Shown here piece by piece: positions 3,281-10,904 of a DNA stretch of 64,000 nucleotides. The stretch lies in the sequence record MT446392.1. One strand, written 5' to 3'. Under the pieces are notes generated by a model. It was not told where the DNA came from, made no database searches, and saw only the letters and a list, made by a program, of their open reading frames with translations. The translations under genes and the position numbers were made by a program. Each line of letters starts with the position of its first letter. Within the stretch, counting starts at the first letter, position 1. Origin of the DNA: Escherichia virus TH15.

Positions 3281-3319
3281 GATTCCATACTGAGTTACCA
3301 AATAAAACTGGAGAATAAA

Positions 3320-3625
3320 ATGAAATTCATCATCAACCTGGCGCTTGTTGACTTTGATAAAACTGGTAATTTCGCATCTGCTGAAAATATGATTCGCAAC
3401 ACTAAGTTCAAAGTGCAAGTCCAGCAGGCGGTAGCAAAAGAGTTCTTTACTGATAAATTAACCCACGTTGTCAATCACCTGAATGTGCAAGTTAAATTCA
3501 CTCGTAAAGCAGAAACTACAGTTGAATTTGATTTTGAATGTCGTTACCATGATGAATATGTTCGCCGCATCCTTAATATTGTATCTGATGAACTTTACTA
3601 TGGTGTGCAGGAAAACAAAATCTAA
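3320..3625 (+). CDS. hypothetical protein
   Basis: 101-aa ORF with GGAGAATAAA SD. Confidence 0.55.
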   Translation: MKFIINLALVDFDKTGNFASAENMIRNTKFKVQVQQAVAKEFFTDKLTHVVNHLNVQVKFTRKAETTVEFDFECRYHDEYVRRILNIVSDELYYGVQENKI

Positions 3626-3629
3626 ATCA

Positions 3630-3659
3630 GTGTACGCTTTAACGGGAACATGATAGTAT
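3630..3659 (+). promoter_or_regulatory. possible early promoter
   Basis: -35 GTGTACG, 17-nt spacer, weak -10 TAGTAT; overlaps 8-bp inverted repeat GGGAACAT/ATGTTCCC. Confidence 0.35.
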
Positions 3660-3701
3660 GTTCCCTGGATAATAAAACATTAACCAACTGAAGGAAATAC
3701 C

Positions 3702-4295
3702 ATGAATACTTTAAAGAAACTTGTTGAATTCATCCGCTCCAAACTGGGTACTGCAATGGCACAAAACCTGTCTATTGAAGACCAATATACTAAAGCGGCA
3801 ACAACCCTGATTGACAAGATTACTGAGCTCCAGACTGCCCACGTTAAGTCTGTTAATGAAGAAAAACGCATCCGCGAGTTAGCGAATGAAAAAGACCAGC
3901 TCGCTGCTTCAAAAGAGCGTGAAATCCGTAAACTGATTGCTGATGGTGCTGATGTTCAGGTCCATGCTAAACTAGGTCTCCTGTATCGCCACACGGCTAA
4001 ACAACTTCGTAAGAAGGCAGATGATTATGTTGAAATGCGTAATGAAATTAAATTGAAAGTTAAAGAGCTGGATGATTCTCGTCAGGAACTAGCTGTTAAA
4101 CTGGAATACATCCGCGAAACTCGTAAGGTATCTGCCCTGGGTATTGCGACTGCAGATGATGTTGTTGAAATCGCTGCATTGACTAAGATTGATATTGAAG
4201 ACACTCTGATGCGTGTTGAAACCTTCAAAGGCCCACAGGTTGGTGTGGATACCACATCCGCTGACATTGAAGAATACATCAATTCACTTAAGTAA
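3702..4295 (+). CDS. hypothetical coiled-coil protein
   Basis: 197 aa, charged heptad-rich sequence, AAGGAAA SD. Confidence 0.6.
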
Positions 4296-4301
4296 GATAA
4301 A

Positions 4302-4318
4302 AGGGGGCTTTGCCCCCT
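4302..4318 (+). terminator. GC hairpin, weak terminator
   Basis: Stem GGGGGC/GCCCCC loop TTT; no strong T-run. Confidence 0.4.
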
Positions 4319-4338
4319 AATTGGGAGAGGAGAATATT

Positions 4339-4893
4339 ATGACTTCATACGATAATCTTATATCAAATGTAGAATGGTTTGGCGGCAGTGGTCTTGCCAC
4401 TGAAACTAATACAGTTCTTTATAGAATCCGTGGTGACCTAGGTTATTCCAATGATTTCTTAAGAAGAACAACTAGTCGGGGCGATACTACCAAATTACCT
4501 TTTATTTTTGCTTTGGCTGAAGACCTTTCTTTCGCAGATGCCTTGGAAATTATTGACGTGAATCTGGGCATTCAACGAGTGGAATTCGCTGGACTACGTT
4601 ATTCAGTGTATGCATTAAACGACCCTAGCGATTATAGACAACTTATTGATGCAGACGATGATTATCATTTAGTGTGTTATTTGATGTTAGAAAATGGTGA
4701 CCACTTTGGAATGGTTGACCGCCGTCCAACTTACTCTGATATTAAAAATTATGATAAAGATGAGCTTACTATTTTGGCTGCTGAGTATACATCAGAGAGT
4801 CGTAAGCAACAACGGAAGCTTAATCGTTTTATTACTGAATGTCGTGAATATGCTAAAGGGGTTCAAAATGCGAACGCTATATCTGCCAAGTAA
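4339..4893 (+). CDS. hypothetical protein, C-terminal FITECR tail
   Basis: Track start 4321 is TTG; ATG 4339 after GGAGAGGAG SD. Confidence 0.55.
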   Translation: MTSYDNLISNVEWFGGSGLATETNTVLYRIRGDLGYSNDFLRRTTSRGDTTKLPFIFALAEDLSFADALEIIDVNLGIQRVEFAGLRYSVYALNDPSDYRQLIDADDDYHLVCYLMLENGDHFGMVDRRPTYSDIKNYDKDELTILAAEYTSESRKQQRKLNRFITECREYAKGVQNANAISAK

Positions 4894-5227
4894 ACCAGAA
4901 AAATTTGTATACGCGGACAAGATTGATAAAGACCTTATGCCTCCATTTGGAGCTTTGTCCATGTGCATCGTTGGGGTTATAATGATGGTGCTTTGTGGGG
5001 ATATGGATATCATTAGTGTCGGAGTCGCCTGGACACTAATAATCGCAACTCCTTTTATTACAGTCCTGAGTATGATTTTGATAAATGTGTGGCATCAAAA
5101 TCATATGAATAAAGGATATCGTGGACGAGTTAAAGAGTGGGAACAAAAATGTGTTTCCCTACAAAAAGAGCACAAAATTAAATGTGCAGAAGAATTTATC
5201 AAGGAGGTTCGCAATGGAACGGCCTAG
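4868..5227 (+). CDS. hypothetical membrane protein, C-terminal FIKEV tail
   Basis: ATG 4868 after AAAGGGG SD; hydrophobic helices; overlaps upstream gene end. Confidence 0.5.
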   Translation: MRTLYLPSKPEKFVYADKIDKDLMPPFGALSMCIVGVIMMVLCGDMDIISVGVAWTLIIATPFITVLSMILINVWHQNHMNKGYRGRVKEWEQKCVSLQKEHKIKCAEEFIKEVRNGTA

Positions 5228-5567
5228 TCTTGCACTACATGTTTATCAATTGGCTGAATATGATATTGGTGCCAATTTATTATTAGGGATTGTTACCGCT
5301 ATGCTCGGGGGCTTGGTTGGCCTGGTAATGACCACAGTTATGGCTGCAATCGAGGGAGTCATGCCTATTGAGATGGGCTTCTTTATGATAATTGCTCCGG
5401 CTGTTGTAGCCTATTTTATCCCGGTTGTGTATGATATCTGTCACACAAACACCTTGAATGCTCCCATCCGTAAGAGATACGCTTTGGCAATGGCTGAGTA
5501 TAATAAGTTCCTGGACAAAACAAAACGTAATGAACTTGAAACCTTTATTAAGGAATGTAAATCATGA
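5214..5567 (+). CDS. hypothetical membrane protein, C-terminal FIKECK tail
   Basis: ATG 5214 after AAGGAGG SD; hydrophobic helices. Confidence 0.55.
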   Translation: MERPSLALHVYQLAEYDIGANLLLGIVTAMLGGLVGLVMTTVMAAIEGVMPIEMGFFMIIAPAVVAYFIPVVYDICHTNTLNAPIRKRYALAMAEYNKFLDKTKRNELETFIKECKS

Positions 5568-5854
5568 ATAAAATTGAAATCGCTATCCCTAAGTATTATG
5601 ATGAGAAATCTGCAGAAAAAGCTATCTATTCTCTTCTAAATAAGACTTCTGAAATTGAAACACATTGTGAAGAAATCGCTGATGAATATGGCATTGAATT
5701 CAGCACCGGCGATTACGGCACAGGTCGTACATACCACCCAGTCGGTTATGAATGCTCTGAATGGTTTACCCATCATATTGAAGCCAATGGCGGTCGGGTT
5801 GAAAATGGTGTTGTTACCGTTGGTGCTTGGGTCTCCTCTTCTGAGATGTGTTAA
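5564..5854 (+). CDS. small protein, WVSSSxxC-tail family member 1
   Basis: 96 aa; ends GAWVSSSEMC; ATGA overlap with upstream gene. Confidence 0.55.
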   Translation: MNKIEIAIPKYYDEKSAEKAIYSLLNKTSEIETHCEEIADEYGIEFSTGDYGTGRTYHPVGYECSEWFTHHIEANGGRVENGVVTVGAWVSSSEMC

Positions 5855-5863
5855 GGAAATGGT

Positions 5864-6145
5864 ATGATGAACGATTACAGTAAAAATAAAGAACTGGCCA
5901 ACGCAGTAAACGAAATCCATAAAGCTATTCGGCGCGCCGAGGAAATTGCAGACAAATATGAGACTCATTTTAATATATACCCTGCTCGCGGTATGGGCGG
6001 TGACTATTATTCTCCTGGCGCCTTGAAAGCTGACCTTGCTCATTGGGAAAACTACGGTGAAGCCCAATACGCCATTGTTAACCAACATGACTACACAACG
6101 GACCTTGAAAAAGGTGGTTGGGTTTCCTCTTCTTCTGAATGTTAA
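5864..6145 (+). CDS. small protein, WVSSSxxC-tail family member 2
   Basis: 93 aa; ends GGWVSSSSEC; TAAGGAA stop-SD junction. Confidence 0.55.
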   Translation: MMNDYSKNKELANAVNEIHKAIRRAEEIADKYETHFNIYPARGMGGDYYSPGALKADLAHWENYGEAQYAIVNQHDYTTDLEKGGWVSSSSEC

Positions 6146-6153
6146 GGAATTAT

Positions 6154-6351
6154 ATGTCCCGTGAATTAGATTGTGCAATCCGTACTGCTGCGGCAGCTAT
6201 TGAAAACGTTATCCAGATTTGCAAAGAAGAACGCGAAGAAGCTGATATCTATATTGACGGTCAGCGTAATCTGGAACAACATATTACGCTTTATAATGGT
6301 TGTATTACTATTAGTGGTACCTCTTGGGTGTCCTCCTCTTACGAATGCTAA
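6154..6351 (+). CDS. small protein, WVSSSxxC-tail family member 3
   Basis: ATG 6154 after TAAGGAA; ends TSWVSSSYEC. Confidence 0.55.
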   Translation: MSRELDCAIRTAAAAIENVIQICKEEREEADIYIDGQRNLEQHITLYNGCITISGTSWVSSSYEC

Positions 6352-6359
6352 GGAAATAA

Positions 6360-6587
6360 ATGACTACTAAAACTGTTAAAGAAATTGAAGACCAAATCCG
6401 TGCACTAATCTGTGAAGGTGAACAGCTGGCCGATAAAACTGGTGAATACTTTCATGTATATGCTGACAGTCTTCAACGATATATTCCTGCGGGCTGTCCA
6501 GAATATGAAGAATATGACTGGATTCGCGGTGATTATGGTATCCCAGAAGGTAAAGGTTTCTGGTACACCTCCTCTATGTCTTGCTAA
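6360..6587 (+). CDS. small protein, WxSSxxC-tail family member 4
   Basis: 75 aa; ends GFWYTSSMSC; TAAGGAA junction. Confidence 0.55.
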   Translation: MTTKTVKEIEDQIRALICEGEQLADKTGEYFHVYADSLQRYIPAGCPEYEEYDWIRGDYGIPEGKGFWYTSSMSC

Positions 6588-6596
6588 GGAATAAAA

Positions 6597-6821
6597 ATGT
6601 CTGATATTAATGAATTAGAAAAAGCAGCTCTTGAACTGGCTGCGCTGTATAAGAAAGTTAAAGATATGGCTTCTGCTCAAGATTTCGGTATTGAGCTCGA
6701 TGATTATGATGGCGAAGTTCGTCTTGAAGACTGGTTGAACAGCTCTTGTTATGGTGAAGAAGCTGGTCGAACCTTCGTTGCTCACCCGGATGGTAAAATC
6801 TGGTACCCGAGCAGCTGCTAA
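6597..6821 (+). CDS. small protein, WxSSC-tail family member 5
   Basis: 74 aa; ends KIWYPSSC; TAAGGAA junction. Confidence 0.55.
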   Translation: MSDINELEKAALELAALYKKVKDMASAQDFGIELDDYDGEVRLEDWLNSSCYGEEAGRTFVAHPDGKIWYPSSC

Positions 6822-6865
6822 AATTATCACAAGGATGTGATAGGAGGACTTATGCACAAGATTTA

Positions 6866-6895
6866 GTATACAAGTCTAAAGAAACATAGTATCAT
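6866..6895 (+). promoter_or_regulatory. T4-type early promoter
   Basis: -35 GTATACA, 17-nt spacer, -10 TATCAT. Confidence 0.5.
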
Positions 6896-6923
6896 TATCT
6901 CGTCAACTAATGAGGAAATCAAT

Positions 6924-7154
6924 ATGTGGTATTACGCCCCAATGGCTGATGAGCCTGTGAAAATTAGTCGCGCTAAGTTTACAAAGATTTACGGCCTCGT
7001 TTATAAGAAGTCTGATTACGGTGTTCGTTTTGAAGATGCACACTGTATCAACGACCCTTATAATGAAGACCTCTATGGCAAATTGGTTCCTATCGTTAAG
7101 GGGTCCGCCTCTGAGATGATAGATGAATCTAATATCTCTGCTGCTGAAATTTAA
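6924..7154 (+). CDS. hypothetical protein
   Basis: 76-aa ORF after TGAGGAAA SD. Confidence 0.5.
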   Translation: MWYYAPMADEPVKISRAKFTKIYGLVYKKSDYGVRFEDAHCINDPYNEDLYGKLVPIVKGSASEMIDESNISAAEI

Positions 7155-7172
7155 GTTACTGAGGAAAATATT

Positions 7173-8132
7173 ATGATGTTAGTTATTGGCTCTCGCGCAT
7201 TACATAACGCCGGTCTGATTGAAAGTAAGAAAATTGAAAACTCTGATTGGGATTTTATCGCTGACCAGGGTTCCTGGAACAGCTTTAAAACCCAGATGAT
7301 GGGGCAGCATGTTCATGTGGATAACCCAGATGTGCAAGCTTTTAAATGTATGCACAATGGTAAAGAAACTTATTTTGAAGCGTACATCGTCCGCGCACTG
7401 ACAAGTGTTCGTGAGTTGACTGATGAGTTGCAAGAGGAAGATTTTACTTCCAGTTATCGTCTGCTCAAATATGCAAAGGCAAATATTCAGAAAGACCGTC
7501 TATCTGGTTTTTACTGGGCGACCCCTGATATTTGTCTGGCAATTAAATTGTCTCATCGTTACCTGAAGAACAATCCATTCTTCCTGAAGACAATGAGCCA
7601 TATTAATTACCTTCGTAATAAGGGTGTTGTTCTTAATGATGAACTACAAAAAATCATGCAACAACGACAGGCAGAAACACTGTCATATAGTCACCCTAAA
7701 CTAGACGTGGGCAAGAAAACTTTCTTTAATGATACAATCTATACCCTTGACCATGACTCCATCCACGAGGCCGTGGCGCTTGCTGATAAGCCTGCATATA
7801 AGTTCTATATGAAGGATGATTCAGAAGTCATGACCTCACGTGAAAAATTTGAAGCACTCCCTGATGTTATTAAACTGGCAGGGGTTTATGAAGAAGCATG
7901 TGTGCTCGCTCTGGAGCGTTCGCAGGTTCCTAACGAGTTTAGTATCCCGGCCAGTCATAGCTTCCATATGGCTCTGGAAAAAGTCTGCACCTCCATTACT
8001 TCTGGATGGTTTCGTGAGTATGCCTGGGAACATTACCAGGATGTGGTTAATATGTACAACACCCTGGGTCGCGAAGACTATGTTAAACGTTTCAAGGCTA
8101 ACCAGCATTTAATTCGTCCTTTTTCAAAATAA
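7173..8132 (+). CDS. hypothetical protein with possible nucleotidyltransferase-fold motif
   Basis: 319 aa; N-terminal IGSRALH...SDWDF resembles GS...DxD. Confidence 0.6.
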   Translation: MMLVIGSRALHNAGLIESKKIENSDWDFIADQGSWNSFKTQMMGQHVHVDNPDVQAFKCMHNGKETYFEAYIVRALTSVRELTDELQEEDFTSSYRLLKYAKANIQKDRLSGFYWATPDICLAIKLSHRYLKNNPFFLKTMSHINYLRNKGVVLNDELQKIMQQRQAETLSYSHPKLDVGKKTFFNDTIYTLDHDSIHEAVALADKPAYKFYMKDDSEVMTSREKFEALPDVIKLAGVYEEACVLALERSQVPNEFSIPASHSFHMALEKVCTSITSGWFREYAWEHYQDVVNMYNTLGREDYVKRFKANQHLIRPFSK

Positions 8133-8134
8133 GT

Positions 8135-8164
8135 GTGTACAACCAAATGGGGCTATGACATAAT
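8135..8164 (+). promoter_or_regulatory. T4-type early promoter
   Basis: -35 GTGTACA, 17-nt spacer, -10 CATAAT. Confidence 0.6.
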
Positions 8165-8191
8165 GGTCCCACAATCAATGAGGAAAATATT

Positions 8192-8878
8192 ATGAACGGT
8201 CCTAAAACTTTTAATAGTCAAGCTCGTGCAGTTGGTGGTTTTGCACATAACGTACAAAATGACCAAATCAAAAATGAACCAATGTTCTTTAACTGTGATT
8301 TGAGTTTTGCTTGGGATAATGGTGGTCCAATCACTCGTAGCTTTATTGCCAATCTCCCAATTGATTGGACTAATCAACATGTTGTGTTTGATTCACGTGC
8401 GCATATGTTAATGCCAGGTTGGTATCCAGCTATCCCTGGCTATCATCATGATGATGTTCCTCGTCCACCCATTCCAACAGGACAACATTTTATTACTGCA
8501 GGACAACCTGATTATGACAATCCTCGCTATTTGTCTGAACACATTCTTGGTCTTGTTAACGCTGATGTGTGCCCTACCCATTTTGCTACAGGCGAAGCCA
8601 CCTTTAGTGAAATCCCAGAAGGTGAACTGATTTATCGCCAATGGCATAAAGAAGTTCTGGCTAAAATTGAATCAGGTGAATTAGAGCAATGGGAAGCTCC
8701 TGACCGCACACTCCTGCAGTTTAATTGTCATACCTGGCATACTGGTTCCCAGACAGTGCGCAATGGCTGGCGTTGGTTTGGTCGTGTATCTCGTAACACT
8801 GACCGTGTTAAAAATATTACCAATGAAATCCGCGTTAATGCCCAAGTATATCTGGAATTCCCTATGGAGGGATGGTAA
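8192..8878 (+). CDS. hypothetical protein
   Basis: 228-aa ORF after TGAGGAAAA SD. Confidence 0.6.
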   Translation: MNGPKTFNSQARAVGGFAHNVQNDQIKNEPMFFNCDLSFAWDNGGPITRSFIANLPIDWTNQHVVFDSRAHMLMPGWYPAIPGYHHDDVPRPPIPTGQHFITAGQPDYDNPRYLSEHILGLVNADVCPTHFATGEATFSEIPEGELIYRQWHKEVLAKIESGELEQWEAPDRTLLQFNCHTWHTGSQTVRNGWRWFGRVSRNTDRVKNITNEIRVNAQVYLEFPMEGW

Positions 8879-9453
8879 TGATGTATGAACCCGGTTGCAT
8901 GGGTGATATGAAAGGTCCACAAGGATGTGCAGGTATTCCAGTTCCAAGAGATGAATTTATGATTACCAAAAGATATTGGGCAAACCTTGATGATGGTGAT
9001 GAAGGAATCAAGGTGGAAAACGTTGATTGGTCGCACTGTAACCGTCATATGAAAGAGCTTTTGATTGAGGAATATAAAATGAAGCACATCGTTAAAGGTT
9101 GGCAACCAGAACCACATAAAGAACAAACACCTGACCCATTGATTTGTTATAGTGAAAAATATGGTTTTCGTACATGGAGCGATGAATATGACAAGTTGGT
9201 GTGCTCCAGGTTCTATGTTTGGATGGGAATACTATTTTTTCCAATCCTGTGGTTTTTCCTGACAACGAAAAATGACTTGCCAATTTGCGTATTCGGGGCA
9301 GCAGTATCTGCGGCCATTGCAGGTATTATCGCATCATTTTTGTGGACCTCTGTTATTGAAGTACCTTTTCGTATTTCTAAAGTTAAAAAGGTATATGACA
9401 ATATCACAAAGAAAAATACATTAAACTCTTTTATTGAGGAATGTCGTAAATGA
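8878..9453 (+). CDS. hypothetical membrane protein, C-terminal FIEECRK tail
   Basis: GGAGG SD then ATG 8878/8881; hydrophobic helices; tail matches 4339-5567 family. Confidence 0.55.
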   Translation: MMYEPGCMGDMKGPQGCAGIPVPRDEFMITKRYWANLDDGDEGIKVENVDWSHCNRHMKELLIEEYKMKHIVKGWQPEPHKEQTPDPLICYSEKYGFRTWSDEYDKLVCSRFYVWMGILFFPILWFFLTTKNDLPICVFGAAVSAAIAGIIASFLWTSVIEVPFRISKVKKVYDNITKKNTLNSFIEECRK

Positions 9454-9686
9454 GTATTGCAATTTATATTAAATCAGAGTCATGTGATTCTTACCTGTAT
9501 TCCTATGATAAAGGTACGCCCGAAGTTGAAATCAAAGATGATTTAGAAATTGACCTGGACTTGTTCCGCCCGATTTCTGAATACAGAGTTCAAACTTCTA
9601 GTAGTGAATCGCCATCAACAGAAACACGTATTGAAATTATTATGGCCGAAATCTTTAAAAAATCTTGGGAACGTGATGATGAGTAA
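9450..9686 (+). CDS. hypothetical protein
   Basis: 78-aa ORF, ATGA overlap with upstream gene. Confidence 0.45.
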   Translation: MSIAIYIKSESCDSYLYSYDKGTPEVEIKDDLEIDLDLFRPISEYRVQTSSSESPSTETRIEIIMAEIFKKSWERDDE

Positions 9687-10137
9687 GAAAAACGTGGTGA
9701 AAGAATTATCTGCTGGCATTATTTTCATGACTGAAGATAAAGAGTTATTCATGGGTCGTGTGACTGGTTCTCGCAAACCGGGTATGCCTGCACATAAATG
9801 GGATATCCCTAAGGGTCATGTTGAAGCCGGCGAATCCCCGATTGAAGCGGCTATGCGTGAATGTGAAGAAGAAACAGGCTTTACCCAGTATGACCCGGCA
9901 TTCTTAAAAGACCTAGGCGAGTTCCGTTATTCAGATAACAAAAACCTTCACCTGTTTTTGTACACGGTCCCGGTCGAGCATGAGCAATTCAGACATAGTA
10001 AATGCTCCGCATATCATACATTCCCGGATGGTAGTTCGGTCCCAGAGTTTGATGCATTTGCTCTGATTAAACCGAGTCAATGGCAATACGTAATGGGTAA
10101 ATCGATGTATAAGGTTTTGACTCAAATTTTCGGATAA
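9676..10137 (+). CDS. nudE: Nudix hydrolase (T4 NudE-like)
   Basis: Nudix box GHVEAGESPIEAAMRECEEETG; ATG 9676 after GGAACG; position upstream of e as in T4. Confidence 0.8.
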   Translation: MMSKKNVVKELSAGIIFMTEDKELFMGRVTGSRKPGMPAHKWDIPKGHVEAGESPIEAAMRECEEETGFTQYDPAFLKDLGEFRYSDNKNLHLFLYTVPVEHEQFRHSKCSAYHTFPDGSSVPEFDAFALIKPSQWQYVMGKSMYKVLTQIFG

Positions 10138-10148
10138 TAAATACACAT

Positions 10149-10904
10149 ATGAATTATCTAAAAATATATGAATCTTTAATAGTATCTGCTATTAAAAGAC
10201 CTCTTACACAAGGATACACCGAAAAACATCATATTTTACCGAAATCGATGGGTGGTAATGATTCTATTGATAATTTAGTTACCCTTACCGCCCGTGAACA
10301 TTTTATTGCACACTTATTATTGGCAAGAATTTTTAAGAATCGCGAAATGTGGTCCGCTGCATATATGATGGCTTCAACAAGTCTAACTAACTCGGATAGA
10401 CATAGATGCTCGTCACATTTATATGAATTATTGCGTAAACAAGCGTCGGTATATAATTCAGGTGAAAATTCTCCAAATTGGGGAATAAAACGTTCTGAAG
10501 AAACACGATTAAAAATGTCAATTTCAAAAATGGGTATCAGGAATCCAATGTACGGTATTCCACAATGTTTGGAACACTCTCATAAAATTAGCCTTGGTGT
10601 TACCGAAGCTTTTAAAAATCCAGAAATGAAAGAACGCCACCGTCAAAGTGTTTCTGGAGAGAATAATGGGTTTTATGGAAAAAAACATTCCGAAAAAAGT
10701 TTGGAAAAACAGCGGAATACAAAACGGAAAGGATTTCCTTGGGACAATTATTTGGAATTGTACCCAATTTGGGTTTCATTAAATTGCCCCAAGCATCCAA
10801 CATTCACAAATGAACTTGTTAAATTGGGATACCCCAAAAAGAAGCTTGTTCGAATAGTGGAAGAGTTTAAAAATGAATATATTCGAAATGCTACGCATAG
10901 ATGA
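10149..10904 (+). CDS. HNH homing endonuclease
   Basis: HNH motif [31 protein letters not shown]; inserted between nudE and e. Confidence 0.8.

What the first reader, a model, noticed from the sequence alone, without database searches (positions are those of the whole stretch)
4339..5567. Family of small membrane proteins sharing a C-terminal F-I-x-E-C-(R/K) tail
Three overlapping genes (4339..4893 ending LNRFITECR..., 4868..5227 ending EEFIKEVRNGTA, 5214..5567 ending ETFIKECKS) and a fourth further on (8878..9453 ending NSFIEECRK) end with the same amphipathic motif; three of the four have hydrophobic helices before it. Their overlapping ends imply translational coupling. Together with the WxSSxxC and DDQIFNAFMKR families, the hyperplastic regions are organised as families defined by C-terminal tails.
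Basis: seen in the sequence. Interest (0 to 1): 0.5.

Follow-up and report, generated by a model that had tools for sequence, protein, structure and literature searches.

The report
Shared C-terminal tail, T4 e-cluster proteins
Four neighbouring early genes of a T4-like phage (counterparts of T4 e.5, e.4, e.3 and e.2) do end in the same short conserved peptide; that peptide also marks a dozen otherwise unrelated small proteins encoded next to a PspA-like gene in many T4-type phages, and it probably plugs them into one membrane-associated assembly of unknown function.

Summary
The window is a Gaprivervirus/Dhakavirus-type T4 relative. The four ORFs are the orthologues of T4 e.5 (soluble), e.4, e.3 and e.2 (two-helix membrane hairpins).

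Three of them carry F-I-x-E-C-[RK], against 0.007-0.1 expected by chance. It occurs nowhere else in the 64-kb window on the coding strand. In the whole T4 genome the motif lies near a C-terminus of a real gene only in e.5, e.3 and the frameshifted e.2.

The true core is Φ(-7)-[E/N](-6)-x-[F/W]-[I/V]-x-x-C-[R/K]. It is selected at protein level, since codons vary freely. It occurs on at least 10 unrelated protein families in the e.6-to-lysozyme interval in nine phage genera. Its F and C are the only invariant residues of the e.5-like family.

- The four are not one family. Only e.3 and e.4 look like paralogues; e.5 and e.2 share the tail alone.
- e.4's tail is degenerate and doubles as the ribosome-binding site of e.3.
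- The 'x-E' and last residues largely encode the next gene's Shine-Dalgarno sequence and ATGA overlap.
- Amphipathicity is weak.

The upstream gene e.6 is probably a PspA/Vipp1-like protein. My best but unproven reading is that the tail is a common docking helix tying these proteins to an e.6-centred module at the inner membrane.

The parts
3702..4295 (+). e.6 orthologue, probably a PspA/IM30/Vipp1-like (ESCRT-III-type) protein. It lies immediately upstream of the tail-bearing genes and is the candidate partner.
4339..4893 (+). Gene A: e.5 orthologue, a soluble 184-aa protein with a long C-terminal helix that carries the tail.
   Evidence: phrog_8788, E 1.7e-113. hhalign to the T4 e.5 family gives 92% probability over 131 columns. 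No TM segment. AF2 is low-confidence but places a helix at residues 140-183.
4828..4845 (+). Tail core of A: F-I-T-E-C-R, with L at -7 and N at -6.
   Evidence: F164 and C168 are the only invariant columns of the e.5-like alignment across nine genera.
4846..4870 (+). A-to-B junction, GAATATGCTAAAGGGGTTCAAAATG (Shine-Dalgarno sequence plus start codon of B). It is a direct repeat of the B-to-C junction.
4868..5227 (+). Gene B: e.4 orthologue, a 119-aa two-helix membrane hairpin with a degenerate tail.
   Evidence: phrog_2604, E 5.6e-45, with a cross-hit to phrog_2330. TM segments at residues 26-44 and 54-72. BLASTP against C gives E 5e-5; hhalign gives 73% probability.
5195..5212 (+). Degenerate tail of B: F-I-K-E-V-R. 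Its K-E-V codons (AAG GAG GTT) form the Shine-Dalgarno sequence of C.
5192..5216 (+). B-to-C junction, GAATTTATCAAGGAGGTTCGCAATG, a repeat of the A-to-B junction. Relatives that lack e.4 carry a hybrid of the two junctions.
5214..5567 (+). Gene C: e.3 orthologue, a 117-aa membrane hairpin with the tail at the extreme C-terminus.
   Evidence: phrog_2330, E 1.5e-44, with a cross-hit to phrog_2203. tblastn reaches T4 e.3. TM segments.
5544..5561 (+). Tail core of C: F-I-K-E-C-K. The AAGGA in its K-E codons is the Shine-Dalgarno sequence of the next gene, whose ATG overlaps the stop codon.
   Evidence: repeat family D3.
8878..9453 (+). Gene D: e.2 orthologue, with an N-terminal soluble domain, two TM helices and the tail. 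Alternative starts are at 8872 and 8959.
   Evidence: phrog_2203, E 1.2e-69, matching from residue 28. SP18 annotates it as e.2. TM segments at residues 112-130 and 134-152, and a GGAGGG Shine-Dalgarno sequence 6 nt before 8878.
9430..9447 (+). Tail core of D: F-I-E-E-C-R. The GAGGA in its E-E codons is the Shine-Dalgarno sequence of the next gene (ATG at 9450).
   Evidence: repeat families D3 and D8.

Best explanation
The four ORFs are the orthologues of T4 e.5, e.4, e.3 and e.2. They share a short C-terminal helical module selected at protein level: a hydrophobic residue at -7, E/N at -6, F/W at -4, I/V at -3, Cys at 0 and Arg/Lys at +1. In the e.4 lineage the Cys is replaced by V, S, I or M.

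The module sits in the cytoplasm. It ends a soluble protein (e.5) and ends the K/R-rich cytoplasmic extension of N-in/C-in two-helix hairpins (e.4, e.3, e.2). In other T4-type genera the same module is attached to further unrelated small proteins in the same genome interval.

I propose that it is a common docking or assembly helix. It would let an expandable set of soluble and membrane-anchored adaptors bind one shared partner at the inner face of the cytoplasmic membrane. The best candidate partner is the product of the adjacent, always co-occurring gene e.6, which looks like a PspA/Vipp1 (ESCRT-III-type) membrane-binding protein. PspA-family proteins are similarly held at the membrane by small membrane proteins encoded beside them (PspB/PspC, PspM, LiaI).

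Shown here:
- The motif, its conservation and its restriction to this locus.
- The protein-level selection.
- The hydrophobic segments and charge distribution of B, C and D. The N-in/C-in topology itself is inferred from these by the positive-inside rule.
- The tight, overlapping gene packing.

Inferred: the helix as a docking element, e.6 as its partner, and a membrane-maintenance role.
For: Identity:
- PHROG matches with E from 1e-44 to 1e-113.
- Synteny e.6-e.5-e.4-e.3...e.2-nudE-e-denV, as in SP18 and T4.

Non-chance and locus-specific:
- Shuffle and six-frame scans of the window.
- In a six-frame scan of all 168.9 kb of T4, the only real genes with [FW][IVL]xxC[RK] near a C-terminus are e.5, e.3 and the out-of-frame end of e.2. 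One further tail-proximal match lies in a non-gene frame.

Spread: tails of this type sit on e.5-like, e.3, e.2 and other two-TM proteins (WIKGCRK, WVKGCRK, WIRSCRK). They also sit on soluble 95-131-aa proteins (FIKYCRG, FIAKCRAK, FLEYCRS, FIRMCRK). The phages belong to Tequatro-, Mosig/Marfa-, Jiaoda-, Karam-, Winkler-, Biquarta-, Ceceduo- and Pseudotevenvirus, always between e.6 and e.

Positions not used to find the tails are also biased: -7 is I/L/F/V/M in 27 of 31 representatives and -6 is E/N/S/D in 27 of 31.

Protein-level selection:
- Cys is encoded by TGT 34 times and TGC 29 times.
- Arg uses six codons.
- Window A (KLNRFITECR) and the e.2 of T4 relatives (KLNNFITECR) are 9/10 identical in protein, but use different codons for K, L, I, C and R.

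Functional weight:
- F164 and C168 are the only invariant columns of the e.5-like alignment across nine genera.
- All representatives whose sequences I read from an exhaustive HMMER search of 1.84e9 proteins keep F-[IV]-x-x-C-[RK]. These are 9 of the 10 clusters found, 4 of which were already in the query alignment.

Module, not a family: similarity between e.5, e.3 and e.2 is confined to the tail.

Topology: two hydrophobic segments, a short loop and a K/R-rich C-terminal segment.

e.6 as PspA-like: plus the JGI name 'phage shock protein A' for orthologue P0102. An e.5-like tail-bearing gene immediately follows e.6 in every locus examined.

Precedent: PSP systems pair PspA with adjacent small TM proteins and with short SHOCT-like helical modules on disparate domains (PMC11237479).
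Against: - No direct evidence of any interaction. All comparison loci were fetched through e.6, so co-occurrence with e.6 is not an independent test.
- e.6's PspA assignment is sub-threshold in Pfam (19.7-23.6 bits against a gathering score of 33.9).
- The tail-bearing proteins match no PspB, PspC, LiaI or SHOCT model.
- The hydrophobic moment of most tails is not above shuffled controls.
- The AF2 model of A is poor (pLDDT 45), so even the helical state rests on a weak prediction plus the i, i+3, i+4, i+7 spacing.
- B's tail is indistinguishable from background under the Cys-type model.
- T4 itself tolerates a frameshifted e.2, so individual members are dispensable in the laboratory.
Confidence: 0.4

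Rival explanations
1. The tail is a shared interaction motif, but its partner is not e.6. Either the tails bundle with one another into a hetero-oligomeric e.5/e.4/e.3/e.2 complex, with the single Cys at the interface or at a shared metal site. Or they all bind one host protein, for example a protease, chaperone or envelope factor, acting as a short linear motif or degron.
For: - The conservation, locus restriction and protein-level selection are the same as for the best explanation.
- Translationally packed neighbouring genes are typical of complex subunits.
- The hydrophobic spacing -7, -4, -3, 0 is heptad-like.
- The near-invariant Cys is unusual for a purely hydrophobic contact.
- The basic C-terminal end loosely recalls C-terminal protease-recognition tags (own knowledge; not tested).
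Against: - The Aeromonas-phage and Pseudotevenvirus loci examined carry only e.5-like tail-bearing genes: one in three loci and two tandem e.5-like copies in Ceceduovirus. Hetero-bundling of e.5 with e.2-e.4 therefore cannot be the ancestral role.
- Cys is replaced by V, I, M or S in the e.4 lineage, which argues against obligatory Cys chemistry.
- The distance from the motif to the C-terminus varies from 0 to 25 residues, which is unusual for a terminal degron.
- No host partner could be examined.
Confidence: 0.25
2. The tail is a relic of common descent and modular recombination. Genes in this hyperplastic region arise by duplication and by swapping N-terminal parts at gene junctions. The 3' end is inherited as a structural helix cap, with no common partner.
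For: - e.3 and e.4 look like tandem paralogues.
- e.4 is gained or lost by recombination between two 25-nt junction repeats. Relatives lacking e.4 carry a hybrid junction.
- Other repeated junction cassettes exist in the region (repeat families D1 and D2).
- A and C share about 40% identity over their last 24 residues or so (by eye, from the sequences).
Against: - A neutral relic would not leave F and C as the only invariant residues of a family that has otherwise diverged to 12-22% identity.
- It would not keep 9/10 residues identical between e.5 and e.2 of different genera while synonymous sites have diverged.
- DNA similarity between the window's own tails is limited to the 15-nt motif itself (D3).
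Confidence: 0.2
3. The tail is a direct membrane-targeting amphipathic helix of the MinD/FtsA type. It would bring soluble proteins to the inner membrane and lay the ends of the hairpin proteins on its surface.
For: - The location is C-terminal and cytoplasmic, with a basic end.
- The tail is found on soluble as well as membrane proteins.
- The e.5 tails have a raised hydrophobic moment (z 2.1-2.4).
Against: - Most tails have a hydrophobic moment no higher than shuffled controls and a negative mean hydrophobicity.
- Only about four hydrophobic positions are conserved.
- A conserved Cys and a conserved acidic/amide residue at -6 are not features of such helices.
- Three of the four proteins are already membrane-anchored.
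Confidence: 0.07
4. The similarity is imposed at nucleotide level by the ribosome-binding sites and start/stop overlaps of the downstream genes (a translational-coupling cassette), not by protein function.
For: - In C, D and T4 e.5 the two variable motif codons form AAGGA or GAGGA 9-10 nt before the next ATG.
- The last codon is set by the ATGA overlap.
- B's K-E-V is the AAGGAGG of C.
- Within the window, A, C and D use identical codons for F, I, E and C (D3).
Against: - The conserved F, I/V, C and R/K positions use all synonymous codons across phages.
- The motif is equally conserved where no gene start follows at that distance. Examples are window A, the e.5-like proteins with 5-25 further residues, and FIAKCRAK, which lies 30 nt before the lysozyme gene e.
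- The x-x positions, the only ones explained by a Shine-Dalgarno sequence, are the variable ones.
Confidence: 0.05

Closest known systems
T4 ORFs e.5, e.4, e.3 and e.2 (hypothetical or predicted membrane proteins; PHROGs 8788, 2604, 2330, 2203)
   Same: These are orthologues with the same order and orientation between e.6 and nudE/e/denV. The overlapping gene ends are the same. The T4 proteins end ...EKFVKECREYVKAITIPSK (e.5)...MKFVKESRCKSQS (e.4) and ...KEFVIDCRKIK (e.3).
   Different: - In this phage a 3.3-kb insert separates e.3 from e.2.
- A is only remotely similar to T4 e.5 outside the tail.
- T4's own e.2 is frameshifted and lacks the tail.
- No function or shared motif is recorded for these ORFs in any annotation or paper I could find.
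Psp/Lia envelope-stress modules: a PspA-family protein with adjacent small membrane partners (PspB, PspC, PspM, LiaI) and the PspA-PspAA dyad (PMC11237479)
   Same: A PspA-like gene (e.6) is followed directly by a small soluble alpha/beta protein and by small membrane proteins with cytoplasmic helical ends. The genes are tightly packed, operon-like (paper read).
   Different: - There is no sequence match to PspB, PspC, LiaI or any Pfam family.
- The module is phage-encoded.
- The number of partners is variable.
- The partners are defined by a common Cys-containing tail, which is not known for Psp partners.
- e.6's own membership is only probable.
SHOCT and SHOCT-like short helical modules (PMC11237479)
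   Same: A short helical unit is found at the termini of otherwise unrelated soluble and membrane proteins, in PSP-type neighbourhoods. SHOCT modules are proposed to assemble membrane-associated complexes.
   Different: - No Pfam SHOCT match.
- The tail is a single helix of about 10 conserved residues with an invariant Cys, not a bi-helical domain.
- It is restricted to T4-type phages.
T4 internal proteins (IPI, IPII, IPIII and variants), defined by a shared short capsid-targeting sequence in a polymorphic locus (own knowledge; not tested here)
   Same: This is a hypervariable set of phage accessory proteins that share only a roughly 10-residue terminal tag, encoded a few kb away in the same genome region.
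   Different: - That tag is N-terminal and is cleaved by the prohead protease at [LI]-x-E.
- Here the tag is C-terminal and sits on early cytoplasmic or membrane proteins.
- The I-x-E seen in this window is not conserved in other genera.
Modular shuffling at gene boundaries in T4-type hyperplastic regions (PeSL cassettes; own knowledge)
   Same: Short repeated junction sequences flank an insertion/deletion of a whole gene: e.4 lies between two 25-nt Shine-Dalgarno/ATG repeats.
   Different: The repeats here are coding RBS junctions inside overlapping genes, not intergenic promoter/stem-loop cassettes. The promoter and terminator scan shows no excess of such sites.

Membership tests
T4 e.5/e.4/e.3/e.2 ORF families (PHROG 8788, 2604, 2330, 2203) | Significant full-length profile match | tested here: met
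   E-values are 1.7e-113, 5.6e-45, 1.5e-44 and 1.2e-69. hhalign of A against the T4 e.5 family gives 92% probability.
T4 e.5/e.4/e.3/e.2 ORF families (PHROG 8788, 2604, 2330, 2203) | Position between e.6 and nudE/e/denV, on the same strand | tested here: met
   Window ORF order compared with the SP18 and T4 annotations.
One paralogous family comprising all four ORFs | Collinear similarity beyond the tail between every pair | tested here: not met
   Only B-C align over their full length (108 columns, 73% probability; without the tail, 93 columns at 18%). The A-C, A-D and C-D alignments cover 15-19 tail columns, and nothing remains once the tail is removed.
PspA partner membrane proteins (PspB, PspC, PspM, LiaI/LiaF-TM) | Sequence match to the family models | tested here: not met
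   Pfam scans of A-D and of 19 two-TM tail proteins give no such hit at E up to 0.1.
PspA partner membrane proteins (PspB, PspC, PspM, LiaI/LiaF-TM) | Small membrane protein encoded beside a PspA-family gene | tested here: inconclusive
   Adjacency to e.6 holds in every locus. However, e.6 is only probably PspA-like, and the loci were selected through e.6.
PspA partner membrane proteins (PspB, PspC, PspM, LiaI/LiaF-TM) | Physical binding to the PspA-family protein | not testable with these tools
   This needs multimer modelling or an experiment.
SHOCT / SHOCT-like terminal modules | Match to SHOCT models; bi-helical unit | tested here: not met
   No Pfam hit. The conserved unit is a single stretch of about 10 residues.
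C-terminal membrane-targeting amphipathic helix (MinD/FtsA type) | High helical hydrophobic moment with a broad hydrophobic face | tested here: not met
   The moment exceeds shuffles only for the e.5 tails (z 2.1-2.4). The others range from z -1.6 to 1.3, and mean hydrophobicity is negative.
T4 prohead-protease (gp21) sites / capsid-targeting tags | Conserved [LI]-x-E cleavage motif in an N-terminal tag | tested here: not met
   The E at -1 is replaced by Y, G, S, M, H or D in other genera, and the tag is C-terminal.
Nucleotide-level RBS/coupling cassette | Conservation of bases rather than of amino acids | tested here: not met
   TGT/TGC are used 34/29 times, Arg uses six codons, TTT/TTC 48/10, and ATT/ATC/ATA all occur. 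Only the variable x-x codons coincide with Shine-Dalgarno sequences.
PspA/IM30/Vipp1 (ESCRT-III superfamily), for the neighbour e.6 | Pfam PF04012 at or above the gathering score | tested here: not met
   The best score is 23.6 bits against 33.9. The window's own e.6 gives no hit.
PspA/IM30/Vipp1 (ESCRT-III superfamily), for the neighbour e.6 | N-terminal helix plus long alpha1-alpha2/3 hairpin, with the fold closest to PspA/Vipp1 | tested here: inconclusive
   - The AF2 model shows this layout.
- The top 8 Foldseek PDB hits are all Vipp1.
- PF04012 is the most recurrent sub-threshold hit, in 9 of 32 orthologues, collinear from residue 1.

The most novel reading that the evidence does not exclude
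T4-type phages carry their own Psp-like membrane-maintenance module. It would consist of a PspA/ESCRT-III-like protein (e.6) plus an expandable, rapidly diversifying set of soluble and membrane-anchored adaptors (e.5, e.4, e.3, e.2 and others), all plugging into it through one conserved Cys-containing C-terminal helix. Such a module could keep the inner membrane energised during infection, or counter host defences that kill by membrane depolarisation.
Probability: 0.25. Interest if true: 0.8.

Novelty: new variant of a known kind. Interest (0 to 1): 0.6.

Why it matters
The e.2-e.8 genes of T4 have been sequenced for decades without a function. A single conserved tail that links four or more of them, together with a PspA-like neighbour, turns a list of 'hypothetical proteins' into one testable module, with obvious point mutants (F, C, tail deletion).

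If the partner is e.6, this would be a phage-encoded ESCRT-III/PspA system with a new type of adaptor tag. That bears on how lytic phages keep the host membrane working and on counter-defence against membrane-targeting abortive-infection systems.

The case also shows how part of an apparent protein motif (the x-E positions and the last residue) can be the imprint of the next gene's ribosome-binding site in overlapping phage genes.

Tried and rejected
1. Chance: rejected by shuffles and by six-frame scans of the window and of all of T4.
2. A single paralogous family: rejected by hhalign with and without the tail.
3. gp21 protease site (I-x-E): the E is not conserved in other genera.
4. Membrane-targeting amphipathic helix: the hydrophobic moment is not raised.
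5. Tail resembling e.6's own C-terminal helix (EYINSLK): the tail HMM does not rank e.6 among its hits.
6. Fold of A: the AF2 model was too poor (pLDDT 45) for a fold search.
7. Sequence relatives in the PDB for A and D: none. For e.6, only non-significant hits.
8. Pfam and NCBIfam for A-D, the e.5-like set and 19 two-TM tail proteins: nothing meaningful.
9. Word-indexed homologue search for C: only close relatives.
10. Collecting tail-bearing loci independently of e.6: the diverse alignment had no conserved stretch to search with, and e.2 alone found only loci already held. Independence of the e.6 association therefore remains untested.
11. Promoter and terminator scan of 3300-10200: no excess over shuffles.
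12. Literature: six searches and two papers gave nothing on the function of e.2-e.6 or on a phage PspA. One further call (37) failed on a too-short search term.
Full report
WHAT THE WINDOW IS

The region matches Gaprivervirus/Dhakavirus-type T4 relatives (TH40, VR26, SP18, JS98 group) at 87-94% DNA identity. All genes of interest lie on the + strand, in the order known from T4:
- e.6 (3702-4295)
- A = e.5 (4339-4893)
- B = e.4 (4868-5227)
- C = e.3 (5214-5567)
- a 3.3-kb insert: five WxSSxxC genes, a DUF7277/DUF7275 gene and others
- D = e.2 (8878-9453)
- a 78-aa ORF, then nudE, an HNH-like ORF, lysozyme e and denV

PHROG profiles confirm the assignments: phrog_8788, 2604, 2330 and 2203, with E from 1e-44 to 1e-113. 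No Pfam, NCBIfam or PDB relative exists for any of the four.

THE OBSERVATION

Strict F[IV]x[ED]C[RK] occurs three times on the coding strand of the whole 64-kb window, all in A, C and D. Shuffles give 0.007 expected hits in C-terminal regions, and 0 of 2000 shuffles reach three.

In a six-frame scan of the complete T4 genome, the only real genes with the core motif near a C-terminus are e.5, e.3 and a 53-codon frame that is the out-of-frame end of e.2. One further tail-proximal match lies in a non-gene frame on the opposite strand.

B, C and D each have two strongly hydrophobic segments joined by a very short loop (roughly 1-10 residues), followed by 39-47 residues rich in K and R. A has no such segment. 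By the positive-inside rule the hairpins are N-in/C-in, so the tails are cytoplasmic. This topology is an inference.

WHAT THE MOTIF REALLY IS

I fetched the e.6 neighbourhood from 24 further phage loci in nine genera. Tails of the form [FW]-[IVL]-x-x-C-[RK] within 25 residues of the C-terminus occur on many different proteins, always between e.6 and the lysozyme gene:
- the e.5-like proteins (180-316 aa)
- e.3 and e.2
- other two-TM proteins (WIKGCRK, WVKGCRK, WIRSCRK, FINDCRK, FIAECRG, FISRCRIKR)
- soluble proteins of 95-131 aa (FIKYCRGKHVS, FIAKCRAK, FLEYCRS, FIRMCRK)

Two positions that were not used to find the tails are also strongly biased. Position -7 is I/L/F/V/M in 27 of 31 representatives. 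Position -6 is E/N/S/D in 27 of 31. The module is therefore Φ-[E/N]-x-[F/W]-[I/V]-x-x-C-[R/K]. Its hydrophobic positions have the i, i+3, i+4, i+7 spacing of one helix face.

The e.4 lineage, and the last membrane protein before nudE in some genera, carry a variant with V, S, I or M instead of Cys (FIKEVR, FVKESR, FLKEIRK, WIKEMK, FIRGIRS).

PROTEIN-LEVEL OR NUCLEOTIDE-LEVEL CONSTRAINT?

Across 63 distinct tail-coding sequences, Cys is TGT 34 times and TGC 29 times. Arg uses six codons, Phe both and Ile all three. Window A (KLNRFITECR) and the e.2 of T4 relatives (KLNNFITECR) are 9/10 identical, yet differ in the codons for K, L, I, C and R. That is purifying selection on the peptide.

- In C (ATT AAG GAA TGT AAA TCA TGA) and D (ATT GAG GAA TGT CGT AAA TGA), the two 'x-E' codons spell AAGGA/GAGGA 9 nt upstream of the next gene's ATG, which overlaps the stop codon.
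- T4 e.5 does the same for e.4.
- B's K-E-V is AAG GAG GTT, the Shine-Dalgarno sequence of C.

In other genera these two positions vary (H, Y, G, S, M, D), as expected if they are free in the protein.

ONE FAMILY OR A SHARED MODULE?

Profile-profile comparison of family alignments built from the loci gives:
- A against T4 e.5: 92% probability over 131 columns. They are true but remote orthologues.
- B against C: 73% probability, E 3e-5, 108 collinear columns. Without the tail it is still 93 columns, but only 18%.
- A-D, A-C, C-D and T4 e.5-C: similarity confined to 9-19 tail columns, and nothing is left when the tail is removed.

An iterative search from B merges e.4 with e.3. So e.3 and e.4 are probably tandem paralogues, while e.5 and e.2 share only the tail.

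A leave-out HMM built from Cys-type tails of other genera scores A 12.0, C 12.0 and D 8.7 bits, against a background of at most 2.6. B scores only 2.3. B's tail is degenerate.

At DNA level, B's end (GAATTTATCAAGGAGGTTCGCAATG) is a repeat of A's post-motif junction (GAATATGCTAAAGGGGTTCAAAATG). JS98-type relatives that lack e.4 carry a hybrid junction that fuses the e.5 end directly to the e.3 start. e.4 is therefore gained or lost by recombination between these RBS repeats.

HOW IMPORTANT IS THE TAIL?

In an alignment of e.5-like proteins from nine genera (12-22% identity), the only invariant columns are F164 and C168 of the tail. An exhaustive HMMER search of 1.84 billion representatives finds only ten clusters. 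All nine whose sequences I read keep F-[IV]-x-x-C-[RK]. Four of those nine were already in the query alignment, and the tenth, P0026, was not read. The tail is thus the most constrained part of the oldest tail-bearing family. In the Aeromonas-phage and Pseudotevenvirus loci examined, only e.5-like proteins carry it: one gene in three loci and two tandem copies in Ceceduovirus.

CONTEXT: e.6

The gene directly upstream, e.6, is the best conserved gene of the cluster, and an e.5-like gene follows it in every locus.
- Its AF2 model (pLDDT 72) has an N-terminal helix and a long helical hairpin.
- The eight best Foldseek hits in the PDB are all Vipp1, followed by CdvB2 and PspA.
- PF04012 PspA_IM30 is the top, collinear but sub-threshold, hit for distant orthologues (E 4e-5 to 7e-4). 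It is the most recurrent family among 32 orthologues, with 9 hits.
- One source names an orthologue 'phage shock protein A'.

I rate e.6 as PspA-like at roughly 0.65.

MECHANISM

PspA-family proteins work at the inner face of the membrane. They are typically encoded beside small membrane proteins that bind them (PspB/PspC, the two-TM PspM, LiaI), beside a small alpha/beta partner (PspAA), and beside short SHOCT-like helical modules proposed to assemble membrane complexes (PMC11237479).

The anatomy here is parallel: a PspA-like gene, then a soluble protein and several hairpin membrane proteins, all ending in one cytoplasmic conserved helix, tightly packed and overlapping. I therefore propose that the tail is a common docking helix for an e.6-centred membrane module (confidence 0.4).

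Rivals:
- Tail-tail bundling, or a host partner or degron (0.25).
- An inherited helix with no common partner, spread by junction recombination (0.2).
- A direct membrane-targeting helix (0.07). This is disfavoured by the hydrophobic-moment test.
- A purely nucleotide-level cassette (0.05). This is disfavoured by codon variation.

No interaction was or could be tested here. All comparison loci were fetched through e.6, so the association is not independently established.

NOVELTY

The ORFs themselves are known, unnamed T4 genes. I found no description of the shared tail, of any function for e.2-e.6, or of a phage PspA homologue in the searchable literature. That library is incomplete.

The tail matches no known module. 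It resembles in concept SHOCT-like modules and the terminal targeting tag of the T4 internal proteins. I therefore file it as a new variant of a known kind.

Noticed in passing
[not shown]
   Followed up: yes
window 4846-4870 and 5192-5216; L007 and L008 about 8150-8190: e.4 shows a presence/absence polymorphism. Two 25-nt Shine-Dalgarno/ATG junction repeats flank e.4. JS98-type relatives lack e.4 and carry a hybrid junction, so their e.5 ends ...ECREYAKEVQNGTA.
   Followed up: yes
L002 (T4 67472-67960): T4's own e.2 (annotated as 102 aa) is frameshifted. A 1-nt deletion in an A-run truncates it, whereas relatives encode 162 aa with two TM helices and the tail FITECRKLK. The reference sequence has a second, compensating +1 about 85 nt later. 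A recent T4 assembly (OZ209057) lacks that second change but keeps the 309-nt ORF.
   Followed up: partly
window 5564-6821: There are five tandem WxSSxxC genes. A 37-nt repeat covers the W-x-S-S-x-x-C codons, the stop codon and the next gene's Shine-Dalgarno sequence (TG[TC] TAA GGAA). The proteins are weakly similar over their length. The fifth has the motif twice (WLNSSC and WYPSSC).
   Followed up: partly
window 4326-4342, 7160-7176, 8179-8195: The same RBS cassette, TGAGGAAAATATTATGA (AGAGGAGAATATTATGA at gene A), precedes three unrelated genes: A, the DUF7277/DUF7275 gene and the 228-aa gene at 8192 (repeat family D2).
   Followed up: no
window 4301-4318: A G+C-rich hairpin (AGGGGGCTTTGCCCCCT) lies in the 43-nt gap between e.6 and gene A. 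The terminator scan flags it only on the opposite strand. It may be an RNA-stability or attenuation element.
   Followed up: no
window 10149-10904: A 251-aa ORF with an HNH-like motif ([18 protein letters not shown]) sits between nudE and lysozyme e and overlaps the start of e. It is absent from SP18, where nudE is followed directly by e. It is probably a mobile homing-endonuclease insertion.
   Followed up: no
window 7173-8132: A 319-aa protein with Pfam DUF7277 and DUF7275 (E 1e-27 and 3e-76) lies inside the insert that separates e.3 from e.2.
   Followed up: no
L001 6085-6414 (SP18 gp135) and relatives L003-L006: A 109-aa soluble protein (JS98 gp124-like) ends ...KLFLEYCRSSIQV. It is a further tail-bearing family, present in close relatives but not in this window.
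   Followed up: no
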